Positions 31,232-45,124 of a stretch of DNA of 64,000 nucleotides are shown in pieces. The translations under genes were made by a program, and so were the position numbers. Origin of the DNA: a virus (lineage: Duplodnaviria > Heunggongvirae > Uroviricota > Caudoviricetes); the IMG/VR virus record IMGVR_UViG_3300027125_000001; one strand, 5' to 3'. The notes beneath the pieces were generated by a model. It saw only the letters and a list, made by a program, of their open reading frames with translations, was not told the DNA's origin and searched no databases. The stretch's first letter is position 1, and the number at the start of each line of letters is the position of its first letter.

Positions 31232-31382
31232 GGTTTGACGCTGCCTCCTGGTTCATTCATGTCTTTTTTATTTTTTGAAGACCAATTAATCAAATCCCAG
31301 CCGTTGCTAAACTTTTTAGGATTTTCTCCTTTACGTCGCTTTGGTCCTTTGCCTGCTTGAAATTTGCTCATATGTTATATTA

Positions 31383-31712: not shown

Positions 31713-31762
31713 TTTATTATCAATACTTATTTAAGGTATTGATAACTATTTGGCTCGCCATA

Positions 31763-32779: not shown

Positions 32780-32814
32780 GTTTTAATATCGCCGCTGGCG
32801 TGTACGCAATCAAC

Positions 32815-33396
32815 TCAATTCTCAATCAGCACATACGTAAATGTTTCTTTTGCAAAGTCTTGTCCATATAAGCGGATCGCTTCTGTTTTGGCCGCATTAT
32901 AGAACGCAGTCCATTGGCTAGGTGGAAATGTTTGACATCCTTCGGATGACGTTCCATTAATACCTCCCCTATGAATGTTGATTCCAAACCATCCAGTGTC
33001 CAATACACCACCATCTCTTTTAACTGTTACCTCACCCCTGCGTTGGCAGATCGCTGGATGTGGTCTACTTCCATTGTGTGTATCAAAGGCATATACAGGC
33101 CACACCCCTGGTTGCAGCACAGCAATCCCTTTACGTGTGCGTGTTTGCTTGCGATAGACTGATGGGTCAGTATTTGCGTTGTATGAAGCAAATACATTAG
33201 GAGAAATGATGAAAATAGCATCATCATAGATTCCTCGATCGTTTGATAATGGATTACCCATAGTCTTCTTATAGTAACCTCGAACTCCGCAAAACCACAG
33301 ATTATCTCCTGGTTTGAAGTCTGGATACTTTGCAGCTACTTGGCTTAGTAGCTCTTCCTTCGTGATTTGAGGTCTGCTTGCTGGTATAAATGGCAT
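32815..33396 (-). CDS. YkuD-like L,D-transpeptidase catalytic-domain protein
   Basis: GINIHRGGINGTSSEGCQTF matches the L,D-transpeptidase H...G...S.GC(I/Q) catalytic motif. Confidence 0.45.
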   Translation of the reverse strand: MPFIPASRPQITKEELLSQVAAKYPDFKPGDNLWFCGVRGYYKKTMGNPLSNDRGIYDDAIFIISPNVFASYNANTDPSVYRKQTRTRKGIAVLQPGVWPVYAFDTHNGSRPHPAICQRRGEVTVKRDGGVLDTGWFGINIHRGGINGTSSEGCQTFPPSQWTAFYNAAKTEAIRLYGQDFAKETFTYVLIEN

Positions 33397-33445
33397 GTAA
33401 AATACTTATGCCACAAATAGAAGGATATAAGTGTATGAAGTAAAA

Positions 33446-33522
33446 TGGTGGCTATAACAGGACTCGAACCTGCAAAACTTGCATCCTCAATGCAATACGT
33501 TTACCAATTACGTCATATAGCC
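33446..33522 (-). tRNA. tRNA, anticodon GAG (Leu-type) on a class I (short variable arm) body
   Basis: Hand-folded cloverleaf: acceptor GGCTATA/TATAGCC, D-arm ACGT-AATTGGTAA-ACGT, anticodon loop TTGAGGA, T-arm GCAGG-TTCGAGT-CCTGT, A73, encoded CCA. Confidence 0.6.
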
Positions 33523-33528
33523 ATGAAA

Positions 33529-33609
33529 TGGTAGGAGCGACAGGATTCGAACCTGTGATGATTGCCAGTGTGTAAAACTGGTGCGTTCGGCCGCTACGCT
33601 AACACTCCC
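33529..33609 (-). tRNA. tRNA-Val (UAC)
   Basis: Anticodon stem CCAGT/ACTGG, loop TTTACAC; T-arm ACAGG-TTCGAAT-CCTGT; G1-U72; CCA encoded. Confidence 0.6.
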
Positions 33610-33616
33610 ATAAAAA

Positions 33617-33691
33617 GTACCCGCAGAGGGATTCGAACCCCCAACCTCTTGATCCTAAGTCAAGTGCCTCTACCGATTGGGCTATGCGGGC
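33617..33691 (-). tRNA. tRNA, anticodon UAG (Leu-type) on a class I body
   Basis: Anticodon stem CTTGA/TCAAG, loop CTTAGGA; T-loop TTCGAAT; 5-nt variable region; 3' end encodes only A73-C74. Confidence 0.6.
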
Positions 33692-33919
33692 ATATGTAAA
33701 TTGTCGAGACCTGATCCATCGTGTGCACTCGAACACACCTCCCGCACCGATTAACTGCGGTGTTCAACCTATAAACTTCGAAATGGGGGTCTCAGTTAGT
33801 CTTTAGTATCTTTCGAACGATACCATTAACTATTCGCGAATTGGTTCCCTGGGATGGAATTGCACCATCTTCGTTCGCTTCACAGGCGAAGACATTAACT
33901 AAATATGCTACACAGGGCA

Positions 33920-33996
33920 TGGTAGCCACGATGGGACTCGAACCCATAGAAAACAGTTTTTGAGACCGTCACGTTTACCAATTACATCACGTGGCT
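33920..33996 (-). tRNA. tRNA, anticodon CAA (Leu-type) on a class I body
   Basis: Clean cloverleaf: D-arm ATGT-AATTGGTAA-ACGT, anticodon stem ACGGT/ACTGT, loop CTCAAAA, T-arm ATGGG-TTCGAGT-CCCAT, A73 CCA; 77 nt. Confidence 0.65.
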
Positions 33997-34006
33997 ATAT
34001 GGAAAA

Positions 34007-34081
34007 TGGTACCCAGTAGAGGAATCGAACCTCTATTCGCGGTTTAGAAGACCGCTGTCCTATCCGTTGAACGAACTGGGC
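34007..34081 (-). tRNA. tRNA-Arg (UCU)
   Basis: Anticodon stem GCGGT/ACCGC, loop CTTCTAA; T-arm AGAGG-TTCGATT-CCTCT; CCA encoded. Confidence 0.65.
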
Positions 34082-34084
34082 ATA

Positions 34085-34159
34085 TGGTGGGCAGTAGAGG
34101 AATCGAACCCCTGTCTCAACGTCCGTAGCGTTGCGTACTATCCGTTATACGAACCACCC
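34085..34159 (-). tRNA. tRNA-Arg (ACG)
   Basis: Anticodon stem CAACG/CGTTG, loop CTACGGA; T-loop TTCGATT; CCA encoded. Confidence 0.65.
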
Positions 34160-34231
34160 AAATTAACGAGGCCGTCTCTCCGGCTGTCACGCACTTTACC
34201 AGGTGGCGTTCGCCTATTCAGATCAGTATAA

Positions 34232-34720
34232 TCAGAACTTAAACCCAACACCTGCTCGAATTGCAACGACGCCATCCTTGGCATCATTCTCTACAAGGAA
34301 ATTGTAGGTTGCATCTGCAAACAGATTGAGGGTATTAGTAAGACTATAACTTAGACCGCCACCGGTTCGTACGGTCCATTGATCTGTATCGAATTCATAA
34401 GCACCGCCCGCCAAGCCATATACAGAAAGCTTCTCTCCTACGGGGACGTAATAGAGAAGATTACCACCTACGGTATAAAGGTCATCTGCTACACCAACAG
34501 TAAGTTCTGCTTTCAGATCGCCTACAACTGGAGCTTCAAGACTCAAACCTCCACCGACTGTTTCATCACCATTGTCAAGGACCACAGTTGTGAATGCCTT
34601 TGAAACCCATCCTGTGGATCCAACTTCTGGTGTAGCAGGGGTTGGAGGTGTTACAGGAGAGCCTGCAAATGCCATTTGTGTTGCGAGTGCCATTACTAGT
34701 GATAGTAGTTTTGTTTTCAT
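34232..34720 (-). CDS. outer-membrane beta-barrel protein (Ail/Lom/OmpX-like, ~8 strands) with signal peptide
   Basis: N-terminal MKTKLLSLVMALATQMAFA signal; alternating amphipathic strands; C-terminal ...AGVGFKF (terminal Phe as in OMP beta-signals); 162 aa. Confidence 0.55.
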   Translation of the reverse strand: MKTKLLSLVMALATQMAFAGSPVTPPTPATPEVGSTGWVSKAFTTVVLDNGDETVGGGLSLEAPVVGDLKAELTVGVADDLYTVGGNLLYYVPVGEKLSVYGLAGGAYEFDTDQWTVRTGGGLSYSLTNTLNLFADATYNFLVENDAKDGVVAIRAGVGFKF

Positions 34721-34819
34721 AATTTGATTTTGTTGAAGATGTTATCTTCGTTTATATTATACTTTGTGGTGTGTGTTAAATCAACATCTTATTGTTTGTT
34801 TTTTAAAAATCAAAAGAAA

Positions 34820-35164
34820 TTAATGCCTCTTTCTTTTCATCATAACTGCTACCCCCGCTGCTGTCATCAGGACTCCTGGGTTCGTTGGTTCGGGTGCGCT
34901 AATATGTTGCCCATAGCAATCCCATTGATTTCCATTCCGCACACAAATACCATCAGGCCCGTCAGAACCTAATGTATTTAATCGAAAAGAATTTTGCCCA
35001 TTAACTCCCTGCACTAAAAGGAACCCGATGCTTAAAATTAGTGCCATGTTGAATTTGCTTTTACACCAAATATAGAATTTAGTAGGAGCTACCATCAAAG
35101 AAGTGCGTTGGGGCTCTTCTTGTTTAGATTGATTGTTTGTAGTGGTTGTATGTATAGTGTGCAT
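34820..35164 (-). CDS. hypothetical protein
   Basis: 114-aa ORF. Confidence 0.3.
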   Translation of the reverse strand: MHTIHTTTTNNQSKQEEPQRTSLMVAPTKFYIWCKSKFNMALILSIGFLLVQGVNGQNSFRLNTLGSDGPDGICVRNGNQWDCYGQHISAPEPTNPGVLMTAAGVAVMMKRKRH

Positions 35165-35341
35165 GTTTTAAAATTGGAGGATGGCTTGAGAATCGCACTC
35201 AACAACAAACGTTTTGCAGACGTAGCCCTTCACTAGCCGGGTCGCCATCCAAATTGTGCGGTTCTCTCCCGCAGTCACTAGTTGAACTGATGTTGGATAT
35301 CCTCGACATGCGTCCGTCTAGTCGTCCATGCCAAATTTAAA

Positions 35342-35863
35342 TTAGTAGCTCAATACGTATCTGATAGTCACCCTCTCACCAGGAATCTCGAAGCTTGAGA
35401 CGTGTTCTGGAGGATCTCCATCTTCGCCTTCCAATTCGATGTCATCTGTACCGTTATAACCTTCAAGGTCATCATACAAGTCAGAGATAGCTGATTCGAT
35501 ATATGACGGAAGATAACGCGAATTGTCTTCTTCTGGATTGATGTATCTTCGCCCTCGTTTAATATATGCATCATATTCAACTACAGTCTTGTCACCTGAA
35601 GGTCGTGTATATACACCCCCGGGAGTTAATGCTATTGCACCATTTCGATCATATCGTTTGAGAATGTTTTCAAATGCTTGAATTGCTTTGGATGTCTTCG
35701 CTGGTGCAGTTAGTTCTGCTTCGATAAAAATCGAATATTCTTCAGAGTCGGATGCATTTGATGCGATTTGATCTGCGTACGCTTCACAGATGAGAGATTG
35801 GTCGTTAGTGGGCATAAGAGTATTTAAGGTTAAGTAAGTTGATGTTCTGCAAGTTTGGTACAA
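35342..35863 (-). CDS. hypothetical protein
   Basis: 173-aa ORF. Confidence 0.4.
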   Translation of the reverse strand: MYQTCRTSTYLTLNTLMPTNDQSLICEAYADQIASNASDSEEYSIFIEAELTAPAKTSKAIQAFENILKRYDRNGAIALTPGGVYTRPSGDKTVVEYDAYIKRGRRYINPEEDNSRYLPSYIESAISDLYDDLEGYNGTDDIELEGEDGDPPEHVSSFEIPGERVTIRYVLSY

Positions 35864-36126
35864 AAATCCTTGATTGCTTTGTTATATAGTTCCCTGAATG
35901 TATCTTCTCCAATATCTCCTTCAACAAGATAATCGATATGATGTACTATATCTGCAGCAGTATCTAATATAATCATTGCTACTTCAAACTTATCTAAAAT
36001 ATCAGTAGGATACTTCCGAGCCTGCCTGAATTCATTTGGAACTTCATTGCTATTAATAAGGGACATGATTTCCCTCGAAATGTCAGTCAATCGAAATTGA
36101 TTGTAATCAAAATGCCCTCCACTCAT
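35830..36126 (-). CDS. hypothetical protein
   Basis: 98-aa ORF. Confidence 0.35.
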   Translation of the reverse strand: MSGGHFDYNQFRLTDISREIMSLINSNEVPNEFRQARKYPTDILDKFEVAMIILDTAADIVHHIDYLVEGDIGEDTFRELYNKAIKDFCTKLAEHQLT

Positions 36127-36293
36127 ATTTTAGAAATCAATGATTGCATCGAGTGCGATAACCAATGCTTTGATAATCAATGCAAAGTACAATATAACTA
36201 AAAATCCAATGCTTGTGAAATAAATCAATTTTGGTATTGTAGTGATAATTGAGTCTATATCCATTATGTTGATTTGGTTGATTTGGTTGAATG

Positions 36294-36369
36294 TGGTGCG
36301 GTAGACAGGACTCGAACCTGCAACATTCTGAGTGGAAGTCAGACGCCCTACCAATTGAGCTACTACCGC
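36294..36369 (-). tRNA. tRNA-Gly (UCC)
   Basis: Acceptor GCGGTAG/CTACCGC, anticodon stem TCTGA/TCAGA, loop CTTCCAC, T-arm GCAGG-TTCGAGT-CCTGT, CCA encoded. Confidence 0.7.
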
Positions 36370-36393
36370 GTAAACAATTATACAACGGGGCTG

Positions 36394-36786
36394 TTAGCCT
36401 ATCAAGTCTTTTGTTGATGCTCTTGCGTAAAATGTGAACGTAATCGGAATTAGTTTCCATGTGTCGAGTACTTTTATAATCGGTCTCGTTTCACAATATC
36501 CGTCCCACCCCTCGACTACTTCAAATTCATCAGTTTCTTCCATGTCATATTCTTTCTTGCGAAGAATGAAAGAACCCGATTCTTCGTCATAAGATATTGC
36601 TTTGTTGTATTCTTCCAGAAACCACAGATCAGCATCAACATACAGAGTGTTTGTGCCTTTAAAAAATTTAAGAAGGTTTTGTTTGAATCTACACTCCCGA
36701 ACATCAGTACAGTCAGGATGCTTGTATTTTACTATAAACCTTGGATCTGATAATAGTTTATGGAAATGATTAAAAGATATATTCAT
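36394..36786 (-). CDS. hypothetical protein
   Basis: 130-aa ORF directly upstream (same strand) of the ligase gene. Confidence 0.4.
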   Translation of the reverse strand: MNISFNHFHKLLSDPRFIVKYKHPDCTDVRECRFKQNLLKFFKGTNTLYVDADLWFLEEYNKAISYDEESGSFILRKKEYDMEETDEFEVVEGWDGYCETRPIIKVLDTWKLIPITFTFYARASTKDLIG

Positions 36787-36788
36787 AC

Positions 36789-37925
36789 TTAGAATCCTTC
36801 ATATCTTACGATTTTCATTTTACCAAATCTAGGAATCCCCTGTGCAGTCTTTCCTTGGTATTTTACTGTGGCTAGCATCCCTTTGACTTTTTCGCGGTCA
36901 TTAAATAAGCCACGTGCATATTCTTCGTTGCCAATAACTCCAGTAGAAAAAGCTCTACCGTCTTCAAGAGCCAATACTGCTTCTGTGGCTAGTCCGGTGC
37001 GATTACCTTGACCTTCTTTGATTTCGACAATATTGAATTCTTCGTCTTGGAATTGTTTGAGTTTCAGAAGTCCTTTCGATCTTTTATTCTCATAGATAGA
37101 TGTAGTATCACGAATCATGATACCTTCATATCCATCTTCCACACACTCACTTTCATACTCCGCAATAGCATCGCTGCCATTTACGAACAATGTAGTAACC
37201 ATGTTTATATGCTCATTATTACAAAGCCGTAATTGCTTTGTAACCAATTGCCAATTTCTTTCGTCGAAAGTTAGTTGTCGGTTATTTAGATCAACAAGAT
37301 CATAAACATGATATTGAATATCTTTGCATTCCGCAGTGTGTTCAATTTGACGAACTAACCCCGAAATCTTTTCAAACGGAATGGTATGATTGTAAAGCTC
37401 ACCATCTAGAATAAAAGATTGATTTTCTTTGAATAAATCTTCAAGAGCATTTTCAATATGGGTGCATGAAGTGATCTGTTTGCCCTTTCGACTTTGGAGA
37501 TATACTTTACCATCTTTAAGATACGCAATGCATCTATGTCCGTCTAGTTTGGGCTGAAGAGCCAATGGTGTACCAGGTGCTAGAGGGTGCTGATCCCATT
37601 TATGAGCAAGCATCGGTTCAAAGAAATTCGCACCAGATGATTCCAATGTCTCGCTGAATCCGGCGTCCTTTTTCTTGCGATAGATAGATTCAGCCTTTTT
37701 CAGAGCTTGTTCTTCTGCCGTAGTTGCGTTTGCCTTACCAACATTCTTTGCGAAACAAATAGTCCATTGCGAAGTAGTCAGCTTGCCTCCTACTTGCCCT
37801 TCAATCGTTCGATACTTGTCACCTTCTACTTCAATGCTCCACTGAAGAGGTGCGCCTTTGGTACTGTATTTGTAAAGTGTTTGCATTGGATTTAATATGT
37901 TGAAATTGAATTGCGAGGACTCCAT
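36789..37925 (-). CDS. ATP-dependent DNA ligase
   Basis: Nucleotidyltransferase motif I KLDGHRC, 378 aa, OB-like C-terminal half. Confidence 0.65.
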   Translation of the reverse strand: MESSQFNFNILNPMQTLYKYSTKGAPLQWSIEVEGDKYRTIEGQVGGKLTTSQWTICFAKNVGKANATTAEEQALKKAESIYRKKKDAGFSETLESSGANFFEPMLAHKWDQHPLAPGTPLALQPKLDGHRCIAYLKDGKVYLQSRKGKQITSCTHIENALEDLFKENQSFILDGELYNHTIPFEKISGLVRQIEHTAECKDIQYHVYDLVDLNNRQLTFDERNWQLVTKQLRLCNNEHINMVTTLFVNGSDAIAEYESECVEDGYEGIMIRDTTSIYENKRSKGLLKLKQFQDEEFNIVEIKEGQGNRTGLATEAVLALEDGRAFSTGVIGNEEYARGLFNDREKVKGMLATVKYQGKTAQGIPRFGKMKIVRYEGF

Positions 37926-38119
37926 TCGTTTAAATCTACTATTTCATACCAATCACATGGCATATCTCCAATAGTATAACCACACCTACCGTAGTTATTT
38001 TCTTCCATTGTTTCAACCATATTGAGAGCCTCTTCGTATGAATCATACGAATCAACCCAATTGCTTGTACCCGCACCAGGATAATAGTCGTGGCCTGCTA
38101 TCAAAAGATATCTTTTCAT
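37892..38119 (-). CDS. hypothetical small protein
   Basis: 75-aa ORF. Confidence 0.35.
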   Translation of the reverse strand: MKRYLLIAGHDYYPGAGTSNWVDSYDSYEEALNMVETMEENNYGRCGYTIGDMPCDWYEIVDLNEWSPRNSISTY

Positions 38120-38141
38120 TTTTAGTATTGGTTATTGAAAT

Positions 38142-38216
38142 TGGTTGTCCCGACTGGAATCGAACCAGCTACCTATTCCTTATCAGGGAAGTGCTCTACC
38201 GATGAGCTACGAGACA
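38142..38216 (-). tRNA. tRNA-Ile (GAU)
   Basis: D-arm GCTC-ATCGGTA-GAGC, anticodon loop CTGATAA, T-loop TTCGATT, U1-A72 acceptor, CCA encoded. Confidence 0.6.
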
Positions 38217-38222
38217 ATAAAG

Positions 38223-38317
38223 TGGCGGAGTGCACTGGACTCGAACCAGATGGCTTTTTAGCAAAACCACAATCTGTTTAGCAAACAGTTCCAACGCGCC
38301 TGTTTGGTTTACACTCC
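38223..38317 (-). tRNA. tRNA-Ser (GCU), class II with long variable arm
   Basis: 95 nt; anticodon stem CTGT/ACAG, loop TTGCTAA; variable-arm hairpin GGTTTT-GCTA-AAAAGCC; T-arm CTGG-TTCGAGT-CCAG; G73 CCA. Confidence 0.55.
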
Positions 38318-38327
38318 GTATTGAAAT

Positions 38328-38402
38328 TGGTATCGCCGAGGGGAATCGAACCCCCATTTGAGGAATGAAAATCCTCCGTCCTAACCATTAGACGACGGCG
38401 AC
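38328..38402 (-). tRNA. tRNA-Glu (UUC)
   Basis: Anticodon stem GAGGA/TCCTC, loop TTTTCAT; T-arm GGGGG-TTCGATT-CCCCT; G1-U72; CCA encoded. Confidence 0.65.
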
Positions 38403-38407
38403 ATAAG

Positions 38408-38483
38408 TGGTGGGTTGACTCGGATTCGAACCGAGATGATCTGTTCTTCAGACAGACGCATGAACCATCATTGCTATCAACCC
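38408..38483 (-). tRNA. tRNA-Phe (GAA)
   Basis: Acceptor GGGTTGA/TCAACCC, anticodon stem TCTGT/ACAGA, loop CTGAAGA, T-loop TTCGAAT, CCA encoded. Confidence 0.7.
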
Positions 38484-38764
38484 GAAATTGGTTTGTCTTT
38501 CATGATTTCTATTAGACCTTCATCGATAAGCTTATTGAATATCTCTTTGAATTGTTTTTCAAATTCTATTTGATCTTTCTCGGCAATATAATCAAGGAAC
38601 ATGTTGTATACAGAAGCACATGCGCACGCAACGTAATAAGTATTAAAATTTAATCCCGAGTCAGGTGCTTGAAATCTAATTAACGGTCTATTCCCTTGTT
38701 TGCCATTTTTATCTGTAACTTTGACATTTGCAATGTAGCAGAATGGTTCTATTAGTTGTTCCAT
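38477..38764 (-). CDS. hypothetical protein
   Basis: 95-aa ORF. Confidence 0.35.
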   Translation of the reverse strand: MEQLIEPFCYIANVKVTDKNGKQGNRPLIRFQAPDSGLNFNTYYVACACASVYNMFLDYIAEKDQIEFEKQFKEIFNKLIDEGLIEIMKDKPISG

Positions 38765-39013
38765 TTAATTGAACAATGGCGAGGTTTCTACTTTTTCAAA
38801 TTTAGTGATGTACTCATCCAGTACACTAATATATTCTCGAGCACTTTGAATGTCCCGTTGCAATTCTTCAATTCTGGTTTTATCCTCTGTGCCACATGCC
38901 ATCCATTCACTATTTTCAATGCGAAGAAGATATTCTGACTTGATGTGAATAAGTTCTTTACGAATGATGTAGTTGACTAAGTCGTCTGCACATTGGCGTT
39001 GAGTTTTCTTCAT
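38765..39013 (-). CDS. hypothetical protein
   Basis: 82-aa ORF. Confidence 0.35.
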   Translation of the reverse strand: MKKTQRQCADDLVNYIIRKELIHIKSEYLLRIENSEWMACGTEDKTRIEELQRDIQSAREYISVLDEYITKFEKVETSPLFN

Positions 39014-39077
39014 GTTATATATTCACATCGGGTGTTGTTATTAGCAACTGCTTTGTGTTTTGATCGCAGTTATAAAT

Positions 39078-39152
39078 TGGCTCCTCAGGAAGGTTACGCT
39101 CCTTCATAATCCCGATTAACAGTCGGGTGCATTGCTAGTCTGCCACTGAGGA
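39078..39152 (-). tRNA. tRNA-Asn (GUU), atypical T-loop
   Basis: Anticodon stem CCCGA/TCGGG, loop CTGTTAA; T-arm GAAGG-AGCGTAA-CCTTC (non-canonical loop); U1-A72; CCA encoded. Confidence 0.5.
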
Positions 39153-39221
39153 ATATTAAAAATTAAATTAAATTATTACTTATATACTATAGCAATATAT
39201 CAGAGCGTTGACTGTATAAAT

Positions 39222-39296
39222 TGGTGCCTCCGATGGGACTCGAACCCATAACCTTCAGATTAAAAGTCTGTTATTCTACCATTGAATTACAGAGGC
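39222..39296 (-). tRNA. tRNA-Lys (UUU)
   Basis: Acceptor GCCTCTG/CGGAGGC, anticodon loop CTTTTAA, T-arm ATGGG-TTCGAGT-CCCAT, CCA encoded. Confidence 0.65.
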
Positions 39297-39305
39297 ATGT
39301 GCAGG

Positions 39306-39629
39306 TTAAACTTCTATTGAAATTTGATTGTGTGTAGGCCAGAATCTTTTTTTGTTATCTACCTGAATGTCGCGATCTACTTTAATGTAAGATCTACCCC
39401 AGCCTCTCCATATATGCCCTTGATTCATTTTCCTAGCATGTACTTTGAATGGTTTTTTTGGTGTCATCTTTCTGCTGATGGCGTAATGATAACACCCGAT
39501 TTGAATTCCAGGATGGCCGTTTAGTTGATCGGCGTTGTCTAAACAATATGCATATAAAGAGTAATATGCTTCACCAGCATTTACATCAATCCACTCATAT
39601 GTGGGTTTGTTGCGATCTTTTTTAGTCAT
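39306..39629 (-). CDS. hypothetical protein inside the tRNA array
   Basis: Listed ORF 39306..39872 runs across two tRNA genes; trimmed to internal Met (MTKKDRNKPTYEW...), 107 aa. Confidence 0.35.
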   Translation of the reverse strand: MTKKDRNKPTYEWIDVNAGEAYYSLYAYCLDNADQLNGHPGIQIGCYHYAISRKMTPKKPFKVHARKMNQGHIWRGWGRSYIKVDRDIQVDNKKRFWPTHNQISIEV

Positions 39630-39647
39630 TTTTGTTTTCGTTGAAAT

Positions 39648-39742
39648 TGGTACTCCTGGCCGGATTCGAACCGACAACCGCGCCCTAATCTGGGGCATAC
39701 GAAAGGTATAAGCTTTCCGCTCTACCAATTGAGCTACAGGAG
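39648..39742 (-). tRNA. atypical class II tRNA, anticodon UAU, with long hairpin variable arm
   Basis: 95 nt; D-arm GCTC-AATTGGTA-GAGC; anticodon stem GAAAG/CTTTC, loop CTTATAC (U33, A37); variable hairpin TGCCC-CAGATTA-GGGCG; T-arm GTCGG-TTCGAAT-CCGGC; G1-U72, A73 CCA. Confidence 0.5.
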
Positions 39743-39757
39743 CACATATGTTGAAAT

Positions 39758-39832
39758 TGGTTGCGGGAGATGGACTTGCACCACCGACCTCCTGGTTATG
39801 AGCCAGTTGAGCTACTACTGCTCTATCCCGCA
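39758..39832 (-). tRNA. tRNA with anticodon CAU (Met, fMet or Ile-lysidine type)
   Basis: D-arm GAGC-AGTAGTA-GCTC, anticodon loop CTCATAA, T-arm GGTGG-TGCAAGT-CCATC (variant T-loop), U1-A72, CCA encoded. Confidence 0.6.
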
Positions 39833-39889
39833 ATGTGTAGTTAATATTAACACGTGGTTGTGTTGTTATCAACTTGTTTATTTATAAAT

Positions 39890-39965
39890 TGGTCTGGATG
39901 GTGGGATTCGAACCCACGACCTTTTGATCCCAAATCAAATGTTCTACCAAGCTGAACTACATCCA
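39890..39965 (-). tRNA. tRNA-Pro (UGG)
   Basis: C1-G72 acceptor (CTGGATG/CATCCAG) typical of bacterial tRNA-Pro, anticodon loop TTTGGGA, T-loop TTCGAAT, CCA encoded. Confidence 0.7.
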
Positions 39966-40661
39966 GATAAAATTATTTTTGCAATACTCATTAATTACTC
40001 TCATGTCTGGCCACGTGATCGTTTGCGACTTCCACGAAATTGGCCTGTACCATATGAATTCAATGTTGTTATTGACACAATCACTTAACGAGAAATTCAA
40101 TATATTTCTTATTTCTTCTTTAGTTAGATTTGTTTTATTTGAGTAATTTTCTATTAAAAATTTTTCATAGTACCTAACATCATAGTTTGGCTGCAATGCG
40201 AAAAATTTAAGCATCTCATCAATTTTCCCACCTATAATAATATCTAAAAAATAAGTGGTAGATGTCTCTATGCCAGCGATAGCTGTTAGCTTTTCGCGAT
40301 ACGACTTCGCCAGTATCTCTAAATATCTATCATAATCTTGACATAGTATATCAAAACGAGTCCTTAATACATATTCATATCCGTTTTCTTTAAGATACTT
40401 CAACCCATTATGTACAGTAATAAACTGTGGTTTATATATTTCTTGTTGTTTTACACTATTGTAAATGATTTTAAAATTGTTGTTTTTTAATTTGTCGACA
40501 TATTCAGGTGATTCATTTTCCCATATTGATGCTATTTTATTTGTCTGATTTTTGGTCTGTTCAATTAGAACATCAATGGTGTCACCGTGTACGTTTCCTG
40601 TGAATAAAATTGCAGTGTTTGGCATATAAATTAGTACCTCCGGAAGGACTTGCACCTTCAC
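39957..40661 (-). CDS. hypothetical protein inside the tRNA array
   Basis: 234-aa ORF between tRNA-Pro and the next tRNA. Confidence 0.4.
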   Translation of the reverse strand: MKVQVLPEVLIYMPNTAILFTGNVHGDTIDVLIEQTKNQTNKIASIWENESPEYVDKLKNNNFKIIYNSVKQQEIYKPQFITVHNGLKYLKENGYEYVLRTRFDILCQDYDRYLEILAKSYREKLTAIAGIETSTTYFLDIIIGGKIDEMLKFFALQPNYDVRYYEKFLIENYSNKTNLTKEEIRNILNFSLSDCVNNNIEFIWYRPISWKSQTITWPDMRVINEYCKNNFIWM

Positions 40662-40706
40662 CGTGTTGCTTATGAAACAACCATTCTACTTTTGAATTAC
40701 AGAGGC
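40634..40706 (-). tRNA. tRNA with anticodon CAU (second copy; Met/fMet/Ile2 type)
   Basis: 5' 15 nt identical to the tRNA-Lys gene (GCCTCTGTAATTCAA); anticodon stem GTTGT/GCAAC, loop TTCATAA; T-arm GAAGG-TGCAAGT-CCTTC; G1-U72; only A73-C74 encoded. Confidence 0.55.
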
Positions 40707-40709
40707 GTG

Positions 40710-40785
40710 TGGGGCTCAAAGTGGGAATCGAACCCACATCCCTTCCATACCAAGGAAATACACTCACCATTGTGCTATTCGAGCC
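40710..40785 (-). tRNA. tRNA-Thr (GGU)
   Basis: Anticodon loop TTGGTAT, T-arm GTGGG-TTCGATT-CCCAC, C73 CCA encoded. Confidence 0.6.
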
Positions 40786-40794
40786 AAAAGAAAT

Positions 40795-40868
40795 TGGAAG
40801 TCCCTGATGGAATTGAACCATCATAGTCGGAATCAAAATCCGATGCATTACCATTATGCTAAAGGACC
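40795..40868 (-). tRNA. tRNA-Gln (UUG)
   Basis: Anticodon stem TCGGA/TCCGA, loop TTTTGAT, T-arm GATGG-TTCAATT-CCATC, U73 CCA. Confidence 0.6.
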
Positions 40869-40876
40869 ATATAAAA

Positions 40877-40969
40877 TGGCGGGTAGCTGAGGACTTGCAC
40901 CCCAACCTAGGTTCGCTAGATCAATCCGCTTTCGAGACGGTTGCAGTACGCTTGTCTGCTTAACTACCC
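40877..40969 (-). tRNA. tRNA-Ser (CGA), class II
   Basis: 93 nt; anticodon loop CTCGAAA; variable hairpin CTAG-CGAAC-CTAG; variant T-loop TGCAAGT; G73 CCA; one of three near-identical paralogs. Confidence 0.55.
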
Positions 40970-40971
40970 AT

Positions 40972-41048
40972 TGGTGCGGCTGACAGGATTCGAACCTGCG
41001 ACAATATCCTTGGCAAGGATGCGCTCTACCAAATTGAGCTACAACCGC
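40972..41048 (-). tRNA. tRNA-Gly (GCC)
   Basis: D-arm GCTC-AATTTGGTA-GAGC, anticodon loop TTGCCAA, T-arm GCAGG-TTCGAAT-CCTGT, CCA encoded. Confidence 0.7.
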
Positions 41049-41054
41049 ATAAGA

Positions 41055-41128
41055 TGGAGGCCTATCCCAGAATTGAGCTGGGGACTATTCATTACGAGTA
41101 AATTGTTTTACCACTAAACTAATAGGCC
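41055..41128 (-). tRNA. tRNA-Thr (CGU)
   Basis: Acceptor GGCCTAT/ATAGGCC, anticodon stem ATTTA/TGAAT, loop CTCGTAA, T-arm CCCAG-CTCAATT-CTGGG, CCA encoded. Confidence 0.55.
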
Positions 41129-41133
41129 GAAAT

Positions 41134-41209
41134 TGGCACGTGCTGTCAGAATCGAACTGACCCAGTCGGATTTGGAGTCCAACTCGCCTGCCTTGGGACA
41201 TTAGCACGT
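41134..41209 (-). tRNA. tRNA-Trp (CCA)
   Basis: Anticodon stem TTGGA/TCCGA, loop CTCCAAA, T-arm GTCAG-TTCGATT-CTGAC, G73 CCA. Confidence 0.6.
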
Positions 41210-41218
41210 AAAAAGAAA

Positions 41219-41292
41219 TGGAGGTCCTGTCCGGAGTCGAACCGGAATCAACGCATTACAAGTGCGTCGTTTTACCATTAAACTAAAAGACC
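41219..41292 (-). tRNA. tRNA-Thr (UGU)
   Basis: Anticodon stem ACGCA/TGCGT, loop CTTGTAA, T-arm TCCGG-TTCGACT-CCGGA, CCA encoded. Confidence 0.6.
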
Positions 41293-41436
41293 GAAATGTG
41301 CTCCACTAAGAGTTAGCTATTTTCCAGTGAGCACTGTTATCATCTACAAACATGCACAAGCCCATGTTTGACCAGAGCCATATAAGGGATAGCTTGTGAG
41401 GATTTCCTCATAAAGTGTGGATAGTTGATGCTTAAT

Positions 41437-41529
41437 TGGCGGGTAACTGAGGACTTGCACCCCAACCTAGGATCACTAGATCAATCCGCTTTCAAGGCGG
41501 TTACAGCGCGCTTGTCTGTTTAGCTACCC
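41437..41529 (-). tRNA. tRNA-Ser (UGA), class II
   Basis: Paralog of 40877..40969 differing mainly in the anticodon hairpin (loop CTTGAAA). Confidence 0.55.
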
Positions 41530-41535
41530 ATAAAT

Positions 41536-41611
41536 TGGCGGTGCTGACGGGATTCGAACCCGCATCATCTATCGTGACAGGATAGCAATTTGCCGATTAA
41601 AATACAACACC
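41536..41611 (-). tRNA. tRNA-Asp (GUC)
   Basis: Anticodon stem CTATC/GATAG, loop CTGTCAC, T-arm GCGGG-TTCGAAT-CCCGT, G73 CCA. Confidence 0.65.
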
Positions 41612-41617
41612 AGAAAG

Positions 41618-41710
41618 TGGCGGATGAATGAGGACTTGCACCCCAACCTAGGATCACTAGATCAATCTGTCTTCCAAACAGATGCAGCACGCTTGTCTGC
41701 TTAATCATCC
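41618..41710 (-). tRNA. tRNA-Ser (GGA), class II
   Basis: Paralog of the two other Ser genes; anticodon stem ATCTGT/ACAGAT, loop TTGGAAG. Confidence 0.55.
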
Positions 41711-41714
41711 AAAT

Positions 41715-41791
41715 TGGTGGAGATGGTGGGAATCGAACCCACAACAGTCTGATTGCAAATCAGTCTCGCTAGCCTTAGTACATGCACCCCC
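41715..41791 (-). tRNA. tRNA-Ala (UGC)
   Basis: Acceptor GGGGGTG/CATCTCC gives the G3-U70 Ala identity pair; anticodon loop TTTGCAA; T-arm GTGGG-TTCGATT-CCCAC; A73 CCA. Confidence 0.65.
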
Positions 41792-41800
41792 ATTTGAAAT

Positions 41801-41889
41801 TGGTGGGTCCTCAAGGAGTTGAACCTTCTGCCGAACCGCCTGACATAACACGGCAATGGATTTACAGTCCACCGTCAGGAAAAGAACCC
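41801..41889 (-). tRNA. tRNA-Tyr (GUA), class II
   Basis: 89 nt; anticodon stem GTGGA/TCCAT, loop CTGTAAA; long variable arm; T-loop TTCAACT; A73 CCA. Confidence 0.55.
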
Positions 41890-42287
41890 TAAAAAAAGAT
41901 ATGTTATTCAGTGTACTACACTAGGAAACATCAAGCATTTGCTTTACTGGACCCTTGATATCAAGACATTTGATATCTGTAAAAATACTTCATACACTAT
42001 CAGCTTTTAACTGATGTCACTTTCTGTGATCGCTTGGGCGCTTCAGGTGCTCCCTTGTCGTGAACCTCGTTGTTTATTTTAACTTTTTTATTATAACTGC
42101 GGCGTGTTACACCTGCAAGTCTTTTTTAAAGTTTTTTTCAACTCGCGGATGATCGCTGAGCATCGAGGAGACGCCACTTGCAACCACCCGCAGCCATTCG
42201 ATTGGCTGTTGGAGTTGTATAAAAGAAATTAATCTCTGGCGTCTGTGTATTCACGTTAAAATTATTTATATTCGAGATTTACTATTT

Positions 42288-42584
42288 CTACTCTTTATAG
42301 TAAAGTTTTTCAAAATTCTTTAAGGCTTCACTATTAGAATTAAAGGTAGTCATTGCCAAATTATACATCTGGGTGCAAGTTTCCCAAACGGCATCAATGG
42401 ATCCGTCGCCAGTGTCTTGATAAAGGTTCATCATTTGTTTCAAAGAGGATTGGGTGTTGTCAATTGCGTCCTTGAGTGTCGTTTCAAGGCTAGCTACATT
42501 GGCGGCACAGGATTGGAGATCCACCTCCTCATTGATTGTTCCTAGATACTGGCGCTGTATTGTTTCGAATTTGGATTTGCTCAT
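42288..42584 (-). CDS. hypothetical protein
   Basis: 98-aa ORF. Confidence 0.4.
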   Translation of the reverse strand: MSKSKFETIQRQYLGTINEEVDLQSCAANVASLETTLKDAIDNTQSSLKQMMNLYQDTGDGSIDAVWETCTQMYNLAMTTFNSNSEALKNFEKLYYKE

Positions 42585-42757
42585 ATACTTATTTATATAG
42601 TTACAAACAAAATACTATCCATATGCTTTAGAACCTAGCGACTTCATCGTTACTATCACTACAGAAATCTAAAAATCAAGGGGCTAGATGAGAATTGCCT
42701 AAAAATATCTCATCTAGCCCCCTTAAGGATGGTTCTTCGATTGCTTAATTATTCCTA

Positions 42758-43111: not shown

Positions 43112-43130
43112 ATACCTTTATTTAGTCCAT

Positions 43131-44082: not shown

Positions 44083-44097
44083 GATTTAATATATTAC

Positions 44098-44622: not shown

Positions 44623-44633
44623 TATATTAAGCA

Positions 44634-45005: not shown

Positions 45006-45124
45006 TGAGATGAATATAACACACTGGCACAACTTAATCCCACCGCCGATACTCCCACCATTTATAATTTTGCTTATCTTGGTGGTCTACAGCTGGTACT
45101 TTTACATGATCAATCTGCGATAAT

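What the first reader, a model, noticed from the sequence alone, without database searches (positions are those of the whole stretch)
33446..41889. Array of about 29 tRNA genes providing a near-complete decoding set
Hand-folding of the minus strand yields tRNAs with anticodons for Val, Arg (two), Gly (two), Ile, Ser (four, class II), Glu, Phe, Asn, Lys, Pro (C1-G72), Gln, Thr (three), Trp, Asp, Ala (G3-U70) and Tyr (class II). There are three CAU tRNAs counting the intron-containing gene at 58971 (plausibly fMet, Met and Ile-lysidine types), four Leu-type anticodons (three here plus the + strand gene at 57387..57462) and one UAU tRNA. Only His and Cys were not found. Small ORFs, an outer-membrane protein gene and a DNA ligase gene are interspersed. 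So large a complement suggests strong translational autonomy or a codon usage far from that of the host.
Basis: seen in the sequence. Interest (0 to 1): 0.6.

Follow-up and report, generated by a model that had tools for sequence, protein, structure and literature searches.

The report
Phage tRNA array with odd members
This is a real cluster of about 31 transfer-RNA genes (33 in the window) in a large uncultured bacteriophage, enough to read codons for all 20 amino acids; such arrays are well known in big phages, but this one contains two structurally aberrant tRNA types found here only in viral and metagenomic contigs and I found no description of them.

Summary
ARAGORN tRNA genes on the minus strand between 33446 and 41791. 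Rfam and relaxed ARAGORN add Asn-GUU, relaxed ARAGORN adds a plausible Cys-GCA, and comparative analysis adds a non-canonical Tyr-like GUA gene. That gives 31 in the region and 33 in the window, counting Leu-UAA and a CAU tRNA split by a group I intron.

The "outer-membrane protein" call is weak.

The surrounding genes are those of a large lytic phage: ribonucleotide reductase, ThyX, PhoH, DNA and RNA ligases, and tail-fibre-like giant ORFs. Contigs of the same phage reach 197 kb.

With wobble, the set reads every sense codon except CGG. A-ending codons (AUA, UUA, AGA, ACA) are concentrated in the structural-like genes, which fits tRNA supply for late translation. The host is unknown, so the codon mismatch with the host is untested.

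As an array this is an ordinary new member of a known kind. Two members are unusual:
- A 96-nt tRNA(UAU) with a conserved, covarying extra arm whose loop always contains AGAU.
- An 8/4 tRNA(GUA) whose D-stem partner strand lies inside the variable-arm loop, forming a pseudoknot.

Neither family's search pattern matched any of 185,579 prokaryotic genomes.

The parts
33446..33522 (-). tRNA-Leu(GAG), 77 nt, class-I-like (5-nt variable loop), A73, CCA encoded
   Evidence: ARAGORN; Rfam 65.4 bits
33529..33609 (-). tRNA-Val(UAC), 81 nt
   Evidence: ARAGORN; Rfam 46.8 bits
33617..33691 (-). tRNA-Leu(UAG), 75 nt, class-I-like; 3' CCA not fully encoded
   Evidence: 84% identical homologue in L017
33842..33918 (-). 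tRNA-His(GUG) with a 5' G opposite A, A73, and T loop UGCAAUU; compatible with an 8/4 layout
   Evidence: (42.2 bits)
33920..33996 (-). tRNA-Leu(CAA), 77 nt, class-I-like
34007..34081 (-). tRNA-Arg(UCU)
34085..34159 (-). tRNA-Arg(ACG)
35175..35250 (-). Candidate tRNA-Cys(GCA): U73, perfect 7/5 stems, T loop UGCGAUU, CCA followed by ATTT
   Evidence: Found only by relaxed ARAGORN (score 93.5); structure; stems; no close homologue found
36294..36369 (-). tRNA-Gly(UCC)
   Evidence: 72 bits
36789..37925 (-). ATP-dependent DNA ligase gene interspersed in the array (context, not a tRNA)
   Evidence: phrog_114, E 4e-75; PF01068
38142..38216 (-). tRNA-Ile(GAU)
38223..38317 (-). tRNA-Ser(GCU), 95 nt, long variable arm, G73; the 8/4 layout fits better than 7/5
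38328..38402 (-). tRNA-Glu(UUC)
38408..38483 (-). tRNA-Phe(GAA)
39078..39152 (-). tRNA-Asn(GUU) with an odd T loop, AGCGUAA
   Evidence: Rfam 47.9 bits; relaxed ARAGORN 99.8; structure
39222..39296 (-). tRNA-Lys(UUU)
   Evidence: 73.1 bits
39648..39743 (-). tRNA(UAU), 96 nt. Canonical 7/5 body with G1.U72 and A73, plus a 25-nt variable region: GUAU, a 5-pair stem, an AGAUU loop, the return strand, then GCGGUU. Member of a tRNA family found here only in phage, viral and metagenomic sequence
   Evidence: (58.2 bits); absence from prokaryotic genomes
39758..39832 (-). tRNA(CAU)-a, initiator-like: acceptor UGCGGGA, U1-A72, A11:U24, T loop UGCAAGU
   Evidence: the initiator assignment is my inference from the sequence
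39890..39966 (-). tRNA-Pro(UGG), C1-G72
   Evidence: 73.8 bits
40634..40706 (-). tRNA(CAU)-b. Acceptor and D arm nearly identical to Lys-UUU, G1.U72, CCA not encoded. Elongator Met or Ile2, unresolved
40710..40784 (-). tRNA-Thr(GGU)
40795..40868 (-). tRNA-Gln(UUG)
40877..40969 (-). tRNA-Ser(CGA), 93 nt, G73, T loop UGCAAGU; 7/5 and 8/4 layouts both fit
40972..41048 (-). tRNA-Gly(GCC)
41055..41128 (-). tRNA-Thr(CGU)
41134..41209 (-). tRNA-Trp(CCA), G73, with an unusual D arm that is conserved in L017 alongside compensatory changes in the other stems
   Evidence: Rfam only 25.4 bits; homologue alignment
41219..41292 (-). tRNA-Thr(UGU)
41437..41529 (-). tRNA-Ser(UGA), 93 nt, G73; all pairs form in an 8/4 reading
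41536..41611 (-). tRNA-Asp(GUC)
41618..41710 (-). tRNA-Ser(GGA), 93 nt, G73
41715..41791 (-). tRNA-Ala(UGC) with G3.U70
   Evidence: Rfam 30.1 bits; sequence
41801..41889 (-). Non-canonical tRNA(GUA), Tyr-like, 89 nt. It has an 8-bp acceptor stem, a 4-bp T stem and no D hairpin. The strand CCUGAC runs straight into a 6-bp anticodon stem and pairs with GUCAGG, which sits inside the loop of the variable arm (GCCG/CGGC). The two helices cross, so the fold is a pseudoknot. A73-CCA
   Evidence: Not called by default ARAGORN or the Rfam tRNA model. Homologues and covariation. Custom covariance model: 91.4 bits here and 66.7 bits for a new member in L085
57387..57462 (+). tRNA-Leu(UAA), 76 nt, class-I-like, outside the main array
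   Evidence: similar short Leu tRNAs occur in KVP40 and other phages
58971..59253 (+). tRNA(CAU) gene interrupted by a group I intron. Exons are 58971..59003 and 59211..59253
   Evidence: ARAGORN with introns allowed; the spliced product scores 121.9
59004..59210 (+). 207-nt group I intron inserted between U33 and C34 of the anticodon loop. P1 is GACU/GGUC with a U.G pair at the splice site, and the terminal G is at 59210
   Evidence: Rfam RF00028, 40.3 bits, E 3.8e-8, below the gathering score of 50. The core is 75-81% identical to annotated phage group I introns. Splice sites were read from the sequence
28667..29206 (-). Rv2179c-like 3'-5' exoribonuclease. Context only; a role in tRNA 3'-end trimming is my inference
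   Evidence: PF16473, E 2.4e-42
53048..54229 (+). RNA ligase. Context only; a role in tRNA repair is my inference
   Evidence: phrog_968, E 8e-52; PF09414 and PF21189

Best explanation
The region is the main tRNA gene cluster of a large lytic bacteriophage. Same-phage contigs reach about 197 kb. Thirty-one tRNA genes lie on one strand in five tight blocks separated by small ORFs and a DNA ligase gene, and two more lie 15-17 kb away. Spacers within blocks are 1-15 nt, and nearly every gene encodes its own CCA followed by AUUU.

Inferred steps:
- The blocks are transcribed as polycistrons, cut out by host RNase P and 3' processing enzymes, and charged by host aminoacyl-tRNA synthetases.
- Together the tRNAs form a near-minimal complete decoding set: 31 distinct anticodons covering 20 amino acids, with every sense codon read except CGG.
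- The set keeps phage translation running when the host tRNA pool is ill-matched, degraded or attacked. This matters most for the A-ending-codon-rich structural genes.

Shown here:
- The genes exist.
- They retain identity elements.
- They are conserved with compensatory changes in other viral contigs.
- AUA is read as Ile.
- Codon usage differs between the structural-like genes and the nucleotide-metabolism genes.

Not shown: expression, processing, charging, and the selective reason for carrying the set (codon compensation versus insurance against host tRNA depletion or cleavage).
For: - Detection by two independent tools.
- Phage context: RNR, ThyX, PhoH, HNH endonuclease, DNA and RNA ligases, a T4 Y07C domain and tail-fibre-like giant ORFs. 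Related tRNA arrays occur in IMG/VR viral contigs. The same NrdA is found on contigs up to 196,632 bp in many samples.
- Identity elements are intact in the sequences: G3.U70 in Ala, U73 in Cys, G73 in Ser and Trp, A73 in Leu.
- Compensatory changes appear in homologues of Trp, of the UAU tRNA and of the Tyr-like gene.
- Codon coverage.
- AUA is 24-46% of Ile codons in the structural-like ORFs and 0-9% in nrdA, nrdB, thyX and the ligase gene.
- The late-like set is enriched in ACA, AAA, AUA, UUA, AGA, GCA, UCA and GUA. Each of these has a Watson-Crick phage tRNA.
- AUA codons fall in Ile-dominated alignment columns.
- Large tRNA complements are established in big phages. XacN1 has 56 tRNA genes covering all 20 amino acids (abstract of PMC5852040).
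- The defence-evasion roles are published ideas: PMC10264068 and PMC11555353.
Against: - No expression or charging data exist.
- The host is unknown, so the mismatch between host tRNA supply and phage codon demand could not be measured.
- The overall fraction of codons with a Watson-Crick phage tRNA differs little between the late-like and early-like genes (0.536 against 0.519).
- The promoter-like scan is no better than chance, so the transcription units are not mapped.
- Eight genes fail the Rfam tRNA gathering score: four Ser, Trp, Cys, the Tyr-like gene and the intron-split gene. Some have unusual T loops with G at position 55. Their function in translation is therefore assumed, not shown.
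Confidence: 0.8

Rival explanations
1. The array is mainly a counter-defence device. The phage carries its own structurally divergent tRNAs so that host anticodon nucleases, retron or PARIS-type effectors, and general host RNA degradation cannot stop late translation. The oddest members would be escape variants that the nucleases no longer recognise: the Tyr-like gene with its relocated D strand, the UAU tRNA with its extra arm, the 8/4 Ser and His, and the T loops with G at position 55.
For: - Many members depart from canonical structure yet are conserved.
- Neither aberrant family's pattern matched any of 185,579 prokaryotic genomes.
- An RNA ligase sits in the same window; its role in tRNA repair is my inference.
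- Published work shows that phage tRNAs rescue infection from tRNA-targeting defences, including cleavage of tRNA-Tyr (PMC10264068 and PMC11555353).
Against: - No defence system or host is known for this phage.
- A complete 20-amino-acid set is more than is needed to escape particular nucleases.
- The codon-usage split between gene classes is what codon compensation predicts.
- The two ideas are not exclusive.
Confidence: 0.35
2. The array changes the genetic code. On this view the intron-containing gene yields an ochre suppressor, tRNA(UUA), as ARAGORN calls it. Alternatively, the UAU tRNA with its long arm is charged by LeuRS, TyrRS or SerRS and reassigns AUA.
For: ARAGORN places the intron at 37/38 and reads the anticodon as UUA, 'tRNA-Stop'. 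The UAU tRNA has a long variable arm and A73, like class II Leu and Tyr tRNAs.
Against: - The UUA reading needs a 5' exon ending in A and an intron ending in U. Both break group I splice-site rules. The CAU reading gives a U.G pair in P1 and a terminal G (sequence; spliced product).
- TAA is the main stop codon, ending 42 of 64 ORFs, and the ORFs are intact under the standard code.
- Eleven AUA codons in a conserved glycosyltransferase align with Ile-dominated columns. The Ile fraction is 0.52, against 0.59 for AUU/AUC. The Leu fraction is 0.11, against 0.75 at Leu codons. Tyr does not appear among the residues at AUA positions.
Confidence: 0.04
3. Much of the array is decaying or non-functional: tRNA pseudogenes or tRNA-like decoys carried along by duplication.
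For: Eight genes fall below the Rfam tRNA gathering score. Several have odd T loops or D arms. CAU-b looks like a duplicate of Lys-UUU with a changed anticodon. The minimum-free-energy z-scores of the odd members are unremarkable.
Against: - ARAGORN scores are 101-122 for 28 genes.
- The stems are intact and identity elements are retained.
- Homologues in other viral contigs keep the pairs through compensatory changes.
- There is essentially one gene per needed anticodon with almost no redundancy. That is the pattern of a selected set, not of decay.
Confidence: 0.08

Closest known systems
tRNA gene clusters of large lytic phages (T5, KVP40, XacN1 with 56 tRNAs, Atu_ph07, phiCbK-like phages)
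   Same: Dozens of same-strand tRNA genes in tight blocks interspersed with small ORFs. The set covers most or all amino acids and sits in an AT-rich large phage genome that also carries nucleotide-metabolism genes. Short class-I-like tRNA-Leu genes also occur in KVP40 and in Streptomyces, Rhizobium and Ochrobactrum phages. For XacN1 see PMC5852040.
   Different: There is no nucleotide similarity to any of 50,697 deposited phage genomes. Only one protein, a very widespread GlcNAc-transferase family, links the window to XacN1-type phages, at 44% identity. This array also carries the tRNA(UAU) with the extra arm, the Tyr-like gene with the relocated D strand, and an intron-split tRNA.
8/4 tRNAs and allo-tRNAs (Mukai et al. 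2017, PMC5389517)
   Same: That paper reports tRNA-Ser and tRNA-His with an 8-bp acceptor and a 4-bp T stem sitting together in phage tRNA clusters. It also reports long-arm tRNAs with a UAU anticodon. Here Ser-GCU and the Tyr-like gene fit 8/4 better than 7/5, the His gene has A73 and lacks a G-1:C73 pair, and the other Ser genes are compatible with 8/4.
   Different: The window's tRNA(UAU) is 7/5 with a normal 4-bp D stem and A73, so it is not an allo-tRNA. The Tyr-like gene is 8/4 but has A73 and no D hairpin at all. Its D-stem partner strand lies in the variable-arm loop, a layout that the text of that paper I could read does not mention.
Self-splicing group I introns in bacterial tRNA anticodon loops (Azoarcus tRNA-Ile CAU, Agrobacterium tRNA-Arg CCU, cyanobacterial tRNA-Leu UAA and tRNA-fMet)
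   Same: A small intron of about 205 nt lies in the anticodon loop of a CAU tRNA. There is a U before the 5' splice site paired with G in P1, and a terminal G. The details of the bacterial cases are from my own knowledge. Rak2-like/Asteriusvirus jumbo phages carry unannotated intron-split tRNA(CAU) genes with the intron after U36.
   Different: Here the intron lies between U33 and C34, not after position 34 or 36. Its core resembles introns of phage protein-coding genes (primase, polymerase, terminase). The Rfam score is below the gathering threshold. Splicing has not been tested.
AUA-decoding tRNA-Ile with a UAU anticodon (Mycoplasma mobile type) and T4-type phage tRNA-Ile
   Same: An unmodified-gene UAU anticodon reads AUA without needing lysidine synthesis, and AUA is indeed Ile in this phage.
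   Different: The known cellular examples are class I tRNAs (my own knowledge). This family has a conserved 5-pair extra arm whose loop always contains AGAU. It was found only in phage, viral and metagenomic sequence.

Membership tests
Bacteriophage tRNA gene cluster | Many tRNA genes recognised by independent tRNA finders | tested here: met
   28 genes by default ARAGORN in the region. 25 pass the Rfam RF00005 gathering score in the window. The relaxed and intron modes add 3 more.
Bacteriophage tRNA gene cluster | Located in a phage genome | tested here: met
   Phage-type gene content. tRNA homologues and a flanking-gene homologue lie in IMG/VR viral contigs. Same-phage contigs reach 197 kb. 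No virion structural hallmark gene (capsid, terminase) lies inside the window.
Bacteriophage tRNA gene cluster | tRNAs are expressed, matured and aminoacylated during infection | not testable with these tools
   Needs tRNA sequencing of infected cells.
Canonical tRNA (Rfam RF00005) | Score at or above the gathering threshold of 29 bits | tested here: inconclusive
   25 of 33 genes pass. The four Ser genes, Trp (25.4 bits), the Cys candidate, the Tyr-like gene and the intron-split gene do not.
allo-tRNA / 8/4 tRNA (Mukai 2017) | 8-bp acceptor stem plus 4-bp T stem | tested here: met
   Met for the Tyr-like gene and Ser-GCU, with covariation at the 8th acceptor pair in the Tyr-like family (GC:3 UG:3 UA:2). 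Ambiguous for Ser-CGA, Ser-UGA, Ser-GGA and His. Not met for the tRNA(UAU), which is 7/5.
allo-tRNA / 8/4 tRNA (Mukai 2017) | G73 or U73 discriminator and a Sec-like D hairpin (long stem, tetraloop) | tested here: not met
   The Tyr-like gene has A73 and no D hairpin. The tRNA(UAU) has A73 and a 4-bp D stem with an 8-nt loop.
Class II tRNA (Leu, Ser, Tyr) identity for the tRNA(UAU) | Long variable arm of 10 nt or more forming a helix | tested here: met
   The variable region is 25 nt. Four of its five stem pairs show changes on both sides, and the fifth is U.G or C.A.
Class II tRNA (Leu, Ser, Tyr) identity for the tRNA(UAU) | Inserts Leu, Ser or Tyr at its codon | tested here: not met
   AUA codon positions align with Ile-dominated columns. 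This is an indirect test with only 11 codons in one protein.
Group I intron in a tRNA anticodon loop | Match to the group I intron covariance model | tested here: inconclusive
   RF00028 gives 40.3 bits and E 3.8e-8, below the gathering score of 50. The core is 75-81% identical to annotated phage group I introns.
Group I intron in a tRNA anticodon loop | U at the end of the 5' exon paired with G in P1, a terminal G, and an exon junction that restores a 7-nt anticodon loop | tested here: met
   Read from the sequence: GACU|UUAACGGGUC and ...GGUAAG|CAUAAUCGG. The spliced product is a well-formed tRNA(CAU).
Group I intron in a tRNA anticodon loop | Self-splicing in vitro with guanosine | not testable with these tools
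   Needs an experiment.
XacN1-like jumbo phage lineage | Shared core genes or nucleotide similarity | tested here: inconclusive
   No megablast hit. One glycosyltransferase is 42-45% identical to XacN1, Xoo-sp13, CM1 and RAS14, but that family has more than 7,000 metagenomic homologues that are closer, at 66-76%.

The most novel reading that the evidence does not exclude
Two members of the array may represent undescribed tRNA architectures that have so far turned up only in phage and viral sequence, conserved across many uncultured phages.

(1) A tRNA-Ile(UAU) carries an extra arm. Its stem covaries, while its loop always presents AGAU (CAGAUUA, UAGAUUG, CAGAUAA), which nearly copies the tRNA-Ile(GAU) anticodon loop CUGAUAA. 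A speculative reading is that the arm is a second recognition handle. It could let host IleRS or a modification enzyme accept a UAU tRNA that it would otherwise handle poorly.

(2) A tRNA-Tyr(GUA) with an 8/4 acceptor branch has lost the D hairpin. The strand leaving the acceptor stem runs straight into the anticodon stem, and its partner strand is supplied from inside the variable-arm loop. A conserved GG follows, which could stand in for G18G19. This would be a different way of building the tRNA core. It may have been selected to escape tRNA-Tyr-targeting defences.
Probability: 0.5. Interest if true: 0.72.

Novelty: new member of a known kind. Interest (0 to 1): 0.45.

Why it matters
As an array it adds one more large phage with a complete decoding set. 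It also supplies a clean within-genome contrast: structural-like genes are rich in AUA, UUA and AGA, while nucleotide-metabolism genes avoid them. That contrast bears on why phages carry tRNAs.

The more useful outcome is two conserved non-canonical tRNA families, found here only in phage, viral and metagenomic sequence, that standard finders either mis-size or miss entirely. If they work in translation, they widen the known limits of tRNA architecture that synthetases, EF-Tu and the ribosome tolerate. They are candidates for orthogonal tRNA scaffolds and for studying escape from tRNA-cleaving defences.

Cultured carriers of the tRNA(UAU) with the extra arm exist: Synechococcus phage SynMITS9220M01 and Acinetobacter phage vB_AbaS_qsb1. 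Experiments are therefore feasible.

Tried and rejected
- **Close relatives.** Megablast of the array against 50,697 phage genomes gave no match. The distant mode only found scattered single-tRNA similarities.
- **Related loci through the DNA ligase.** This search gave one 38%-identical viral locus with only 3 tRNAs.
- **Promoter and terminator scan.** The counts equal the shuffled expectation, so no transcription map could be drawn.
- **AUA decoding test on NrdA.** It failed for lack of power, because the gene has a single AUA codon in aligned columns. I repeated it on the glycosyltransferase.
- **MAFFT alignment of the Tyr-like family.** It put the linker-flanked stems out of register. I therefore used explicit segmentation and a linker-trimmed alignment. 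That alignment is fitted to the proposed structure, so its numbers lean towards it.
- **Minimum-free-energy folding of the odd tRNAs.** The z-scores are unremarkable and do not help either way.
- **Rejected: the ochre-suppressor reading of the intron gene** (see rivals).
- **Rejected: allo-tRNA membership for the tRNA(UAU).**
- **Rejected: class-I-like Leu tRNAs as a novelty.** They are common in cultured phages.
- **Rejected: calling the phage a relative of XacN1.** The evidence is too thin.
- **Literature.** Searches for a long-arm phage tRNA-Ile or a Tyr tRNA without a D arm found nothing relevant. The library is partial, and the supplement of Mukai 2017 is not held.

Full report

Yes. ARAGORN at default settings reports 28 tRNA genes, all on the minus strand, between 33446 and 41791. 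It also reports one Leu-UAA gene on the plus strand at 57387..57462. The Rfam tRNA model independently passes its gathering score for 25 genes in the window. These include an Asn-GUU gene at 39081..39152 that ARAGORN missed.

With a relaxed threshold and introns allowed, ARAGORN adds three genes:
- Asn at 39078..39152.
- A Cys-GCA candidate at 35175..35250.
- An intron-containing gene at 58971..59253.

The Cys candidate has perfect 7/5 stems, the U73 discriminator expected for Cys, and the same CCA+ATTT 3' end as its neighbours. I count it as probable.

It does carry a CUGUAAA anticodon loop, A73-CCA and the common ATTT tail, and it belongs to a conserved family (section 4).

A regex scan for a T-arm followed by CCA finds no further candidates. 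The inventory is therefore 31 genes in the region and 33 in the window.

It was also probably wrong about Cys. Its details on Ala (G3.U70) and Pro (C1-G72) are correct. The DNA ligase is confirmed. The 'outer-membrane protein' rests on a sub-threshold Pfam hit.

**2. What genome is this?**

The window encodes:
- ribonucleotide reductase subunits, an ATP-dependent DNA ligase and an RNA ligase;
- an Rv2179c-like exoribonuclease;
- ThyX, an HNH endonuclease, a metallophosphoesterase and a KaiC/RecA-like ATPase;
- PhoH and a TnsA-like endonuclease;
- giant ORFs with Laminin_G, pectate-lyase-like and NHL domains, which look like tail fibres.

There is no nucleotide match to 50,697 deposited phage genomes. 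The identical NrdA protein occurs on contigs up to 196,632 bp, in 88 blocks of the assembly collection. A 2.9-kb metagenome contig (L121) is identical at the Tyr-like gene and carries the same order of 12 neighbouring tRNA genes as window 40634..41889.

This is therefore a large, widespread, uncultured lytic phage. One glycosyltransferase is 42-45% identical to proteins of XacN1-type Xanthomonas and Stenotrophomonas jumbo phages. That protein family is so common, with more than 7,000 closer metagenomic homologues, that I do not claim kinship. The host is unknown.

**3. What the set can decode, and who uses it**

I took 64 non-overlapping ORFs (16,433 codons). Under standard wobble rules, the 31 distinct anticodons read every sense codon except CGG and cover all 20 amino acids. 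There is almost no redundancy, so the set looks like a selected near-minimal set.

Codon usage is strongly heterogeneous. AUA makes up 24-46% of Ile codons in the large structural-like ORFs at 89..21000. It makes up only 0-9% in nrdA, nrdB, thyX, the DNA ligase gene and several other genes. Compared with the nucleotide-metabolism genes, the structural-like set is enriched in ACA, AAA, AUA, UUA, AGA, GCA, UCA and GUA. Each of these has a Watson-Crick partner among the phage's U34 tRNAs.

This fits the classical idea that phage tRNAs serve late genes. The overall Watson-Crick-matched fraction, however, differs little between the two sets (0.536 against 0.519). Without a host genome the key comparison cannot be made.

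Published alternatives are that phage tRNAs replace a degraded host pool or escape tRNA-cleaving defences (PMC10264068 and PMC11555353). The evidence here does not separate these ideas.

**4. Unusual members**

(a) *tRNA(UAU), 39648..39743.* The gene is 96 nt long. It has a normal 7/5 acceptor/T branch, a 4-bp D stem and A73. It also has a 25-nt variable region: GUAU, a five-pair stem, the loop AGAUU, the return strand, then GCGGUU.
- A search of IMG/VR with the anticodon arm alone returned 25 loci. In 23 of them ARAGORN calls a 93-96-nt tRNA(UAU).
- A broader pattern returned 82 stretches and 37 distinct sequences.
- In an alignment of 24 distinct sequences, 97.3% of cells are paired. Four of the five extra-arm pairs show changes on both sides. 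The fifth alternates between U.G and C.A, which are isosteric. The 1:72 pair is G.U in 17 of 24 sequences.
- The AGAU in the loop was required by the broad pattern. It was not required by the first pattern, yet all 23 true hits had it. A diverged copy in Acinetobacter phage vB_AbaS_qsb1 has the loop CAGAUAA. That is one base away from the tRNA-Ile(GAU) anticodon loop CUGAUAA.
- Synechococcus phage SynMITS9220M01 carries a copy annotated simply as tRNA-Ile.
- The broad pattern has no match in one genome from each of 185,579 bacterial and archaeal species.
- It is not an allo-tRNA in the sense of Mukai et al., which are 8/4 or 9/3 with G73 or U73.
- To test whether the long arm means Leu, Tyr or Ser identity, I mapped the 11 AUA codons of the glycosyltransferase onto an alignment of 64 homologues. 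They lie in Ile-dominated columns: Ile 0.52, against 0.59 for AUU/AUC. At Leu codons Leu is 0.75, and at Tyr codons Tyr is 0.87. AUA is therefore Ile.
- The arm's function is unknown. That it is an extra handle for IleRS or a modification enzyme is my speculation.

(b) *The Tyr-like gene, 41801..41889.* Its layout, in order, is:
- an 8-bp acceptor stem (GGGUUCUU/GAGGACCC) and a 2-nt linker;
- a 6-nt strand (CCUGAC) that runs directly into a 6-bp anticodon stem (GGUGGA/UCCAUU, loop CUGUAAA);
- then GCCG, a 6-nt AU-rich linker, GUCAGG, CGGUU, CGGC and AG;
- a 4-bp T stem, then A73 and CCA.

CCUGAC pairs with GUCAGG (stem A), and GCCG pairs with CGGC (stem B). The two helices cross, so the fold is a pseudoknot. 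In effect the second strand of the D stem has moved into the variable-arm loop.

Exact-pattern searches found further members in viral contigs and metagenomes. Eight distinct variants all keep the 8/4 branch, stem A and stem B while their sequences differ:
- Stem A: CCUUAC/GUAAGG, CAUCAC/GUGAUG, CCUCAC/GUGAGG.
- Stem B: GCC/GGC, GAC/GUC, GCUA/UAGC, GCCUU/GAGGC, GUCUU/AAGGC.

On a linker-trimmed alignment, 99.1% of cells pair, against 78% in shuffles. Changes on both sides occur in 7 of 8 acceptor pairs, 2 of 6 stem A pairs, 3 of 4 stem B pairs and 3 of 4 T-stem pairs. That alignment was fitted to the structure by hand, so these numbers lean towards it.

A covariance model built without stem B scores 91.4 bits on the window. 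It also finds a new member in L085 at 66.7 bits. That member has a wholly different stem A (CUCUGC/GCAGAG) and a compensated anticodon stem (GGGUGA/UCACUU). This is independent support for the fold.

A GG follows the 3' strand of stem A in seven of the eight pattern-found variants and in the L085 member; L126 has GUAG there. It may stand in for G18G19; that is my inference.

In the window and in L085 this gene is the only GUA tRNA. In L128 it coexists with a canonical tRNA-Tyr. The family pattern has no match in the 185,579 prokaryotic genomes, and the window gene has no blastn match among cultured phages.

(c) *tRNA(CAU) with an intron, 58971..59253.*
- Rfam's group I intron model matches 58980..59188 at 40.3 bits, E 3.8e-8, below its gathering score of 50.
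- The core, 59047..59123, is 75-81% identical to phage introns annotated in primase, polymerase, terminase and thymidylate-synthase genes.
- ARAGORN reads the gene as a UUA 'stop' tRNA. That reading would need a 5' exon ending in A and an intron ending in U.
- Group I rules instead give GACU|UUAAC...GGUAAG|CAUAA. This has a U.G pair in P1 (GACU/GGUC) and a terminal G, and it restores a CUCAUAA loop.
- TAA is also the commonest stop codon.
- Unannotated intron-split tRNA(CAU) genes exist in Rak2-like and Asteriusvirus jumbo phages, with the intron after U36. Here it lies between positions 33 and 34.

(d) *Other departures.*
- All four Leu tRNAs are short and class-I-like. This is common in cultured phages, including KVP40.
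- Ser-GCU fits an 8/4 branch better than 7/5. The other three Ser genes and His are compatible with 8/4. This matches the report of 8/4 Ser and His tRNAs in phage clusters (PMC5389517).
- Seven genes have a T loop with G at position 55.
- CAU-a looks initiator-like: acceptor UGCGGGA, A11:U24 and U1-A72.
- CAU-b shares its acceptor and D arm with Lys-UUU.
- Trp has an unusual D arm that is conserved in L017, with compensatory changes elsewhere.

**5. Verdict**

The array is real. It is functional by every sequence criterion available, and it belongs to a well-known kind: the tRNA clusters of large phages, such as XacN1 with 56 tRNA genes (PMC5852040). On that level it is a new member of a known kind and of modest interest.

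The added value is the pair of conserved, non-canonical tRNA families that turned up only in phage, viral and metagenomic sequence. I found no description of them in the searchable literature. That library is partial, so I put the chance that they are both functional and undescribed at about one half.

Noticed in passing
window 24049..27929 (- strand): The ribonucleotide reductase large-subunit gene is fractured. ORF 25722..27929 encodes NrdA up to barrel position 390 of 523, followed by an intein N-terminal splicing domain (residues 641-732; 28.5 bits, below the Pfam cut-off of 35.8). An AT-rich, AUA-rich 362-aa ORF of unknown function follows at 24584..25672. ORF 24049..24642 then carries the last 65 positions of the RNR barrel. 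This looks like a split intein with an inserted free-standing gene, as in the 'fractured genes' of Dassa et al. 2009 (PMC2677866).
   Followed up: partly
window 33446..41889, 3' ends of the tRNA genes: Nearly every tRNA gene encodes its own CCA, and ATTT or TTT follows immediately (CCAATTT). The exceptions are Leu-UAG and CAU-b, which lack a full CCA. This may be a shared 3' processing signal.
   Followed up: no
window 33842..33918, 35175..35250, 39758..39832, 40634..40706, 40877..40969, 41437..41529, 41618..41710: Seven tRNAs have T loops UGCAAGU, UGCAAUU or UGCGAUU, with G in place of the near-universal U at position 55. They are His, the Cys candidate, CAU-a, CAU-b, Ser-CGA, Ser-UGA and Ser-GGA.
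   Followed up: no
window 39222..39296 and 40634..40706: tRNA(CAU)-b and tRNA-Lys(UUU) share almost the same acceptor stem and D arm (GCCUCUGUAAUUCAA..GUAGAAU). This suggests duplication followed by an anticodon-arm change.
   Followed up: no
L116 396..697 (OU509535.1, Klebsiella phage, 347 kb) and L117 (Escherichia virus TH47): Rak2-like/Asteriusvirus jumbo phages carry unannotated tRNA(CAU) genes split by an intron of about 228 nt after U36. That intron is related to the window's intron.
   Followed up: partly
L089 10466..10558, L096 1626..1718, L112 9315..9407: In the arrays that also hold the Tyr-like gene, ARAGORN calls a 93-nt 'tRNA-Glu(UUC)' with its anticodon at position 30. This may be another non-canonical architecture.
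   Followed up: no
window 17419..18672: The GlcNAc-transferase (PF11397) is extremely widespread and conserved. More than 7,000 metagenomic homologues were found, many 66-76% identical and on contigs up to 235 kb.
   Followed up: no
window 89..22269 versus 22985..63485: There is a sharp split in codon usage between the tail-fibre-like block (AUA 24-46% of Ile) and many other genes (0-9%). ORFs 31763..32779, 54392..55459 and 59909..60766 have no AUA, AGA or UUA codons at all, as if tuned to a different tRNA pool.
   Followed up: partly
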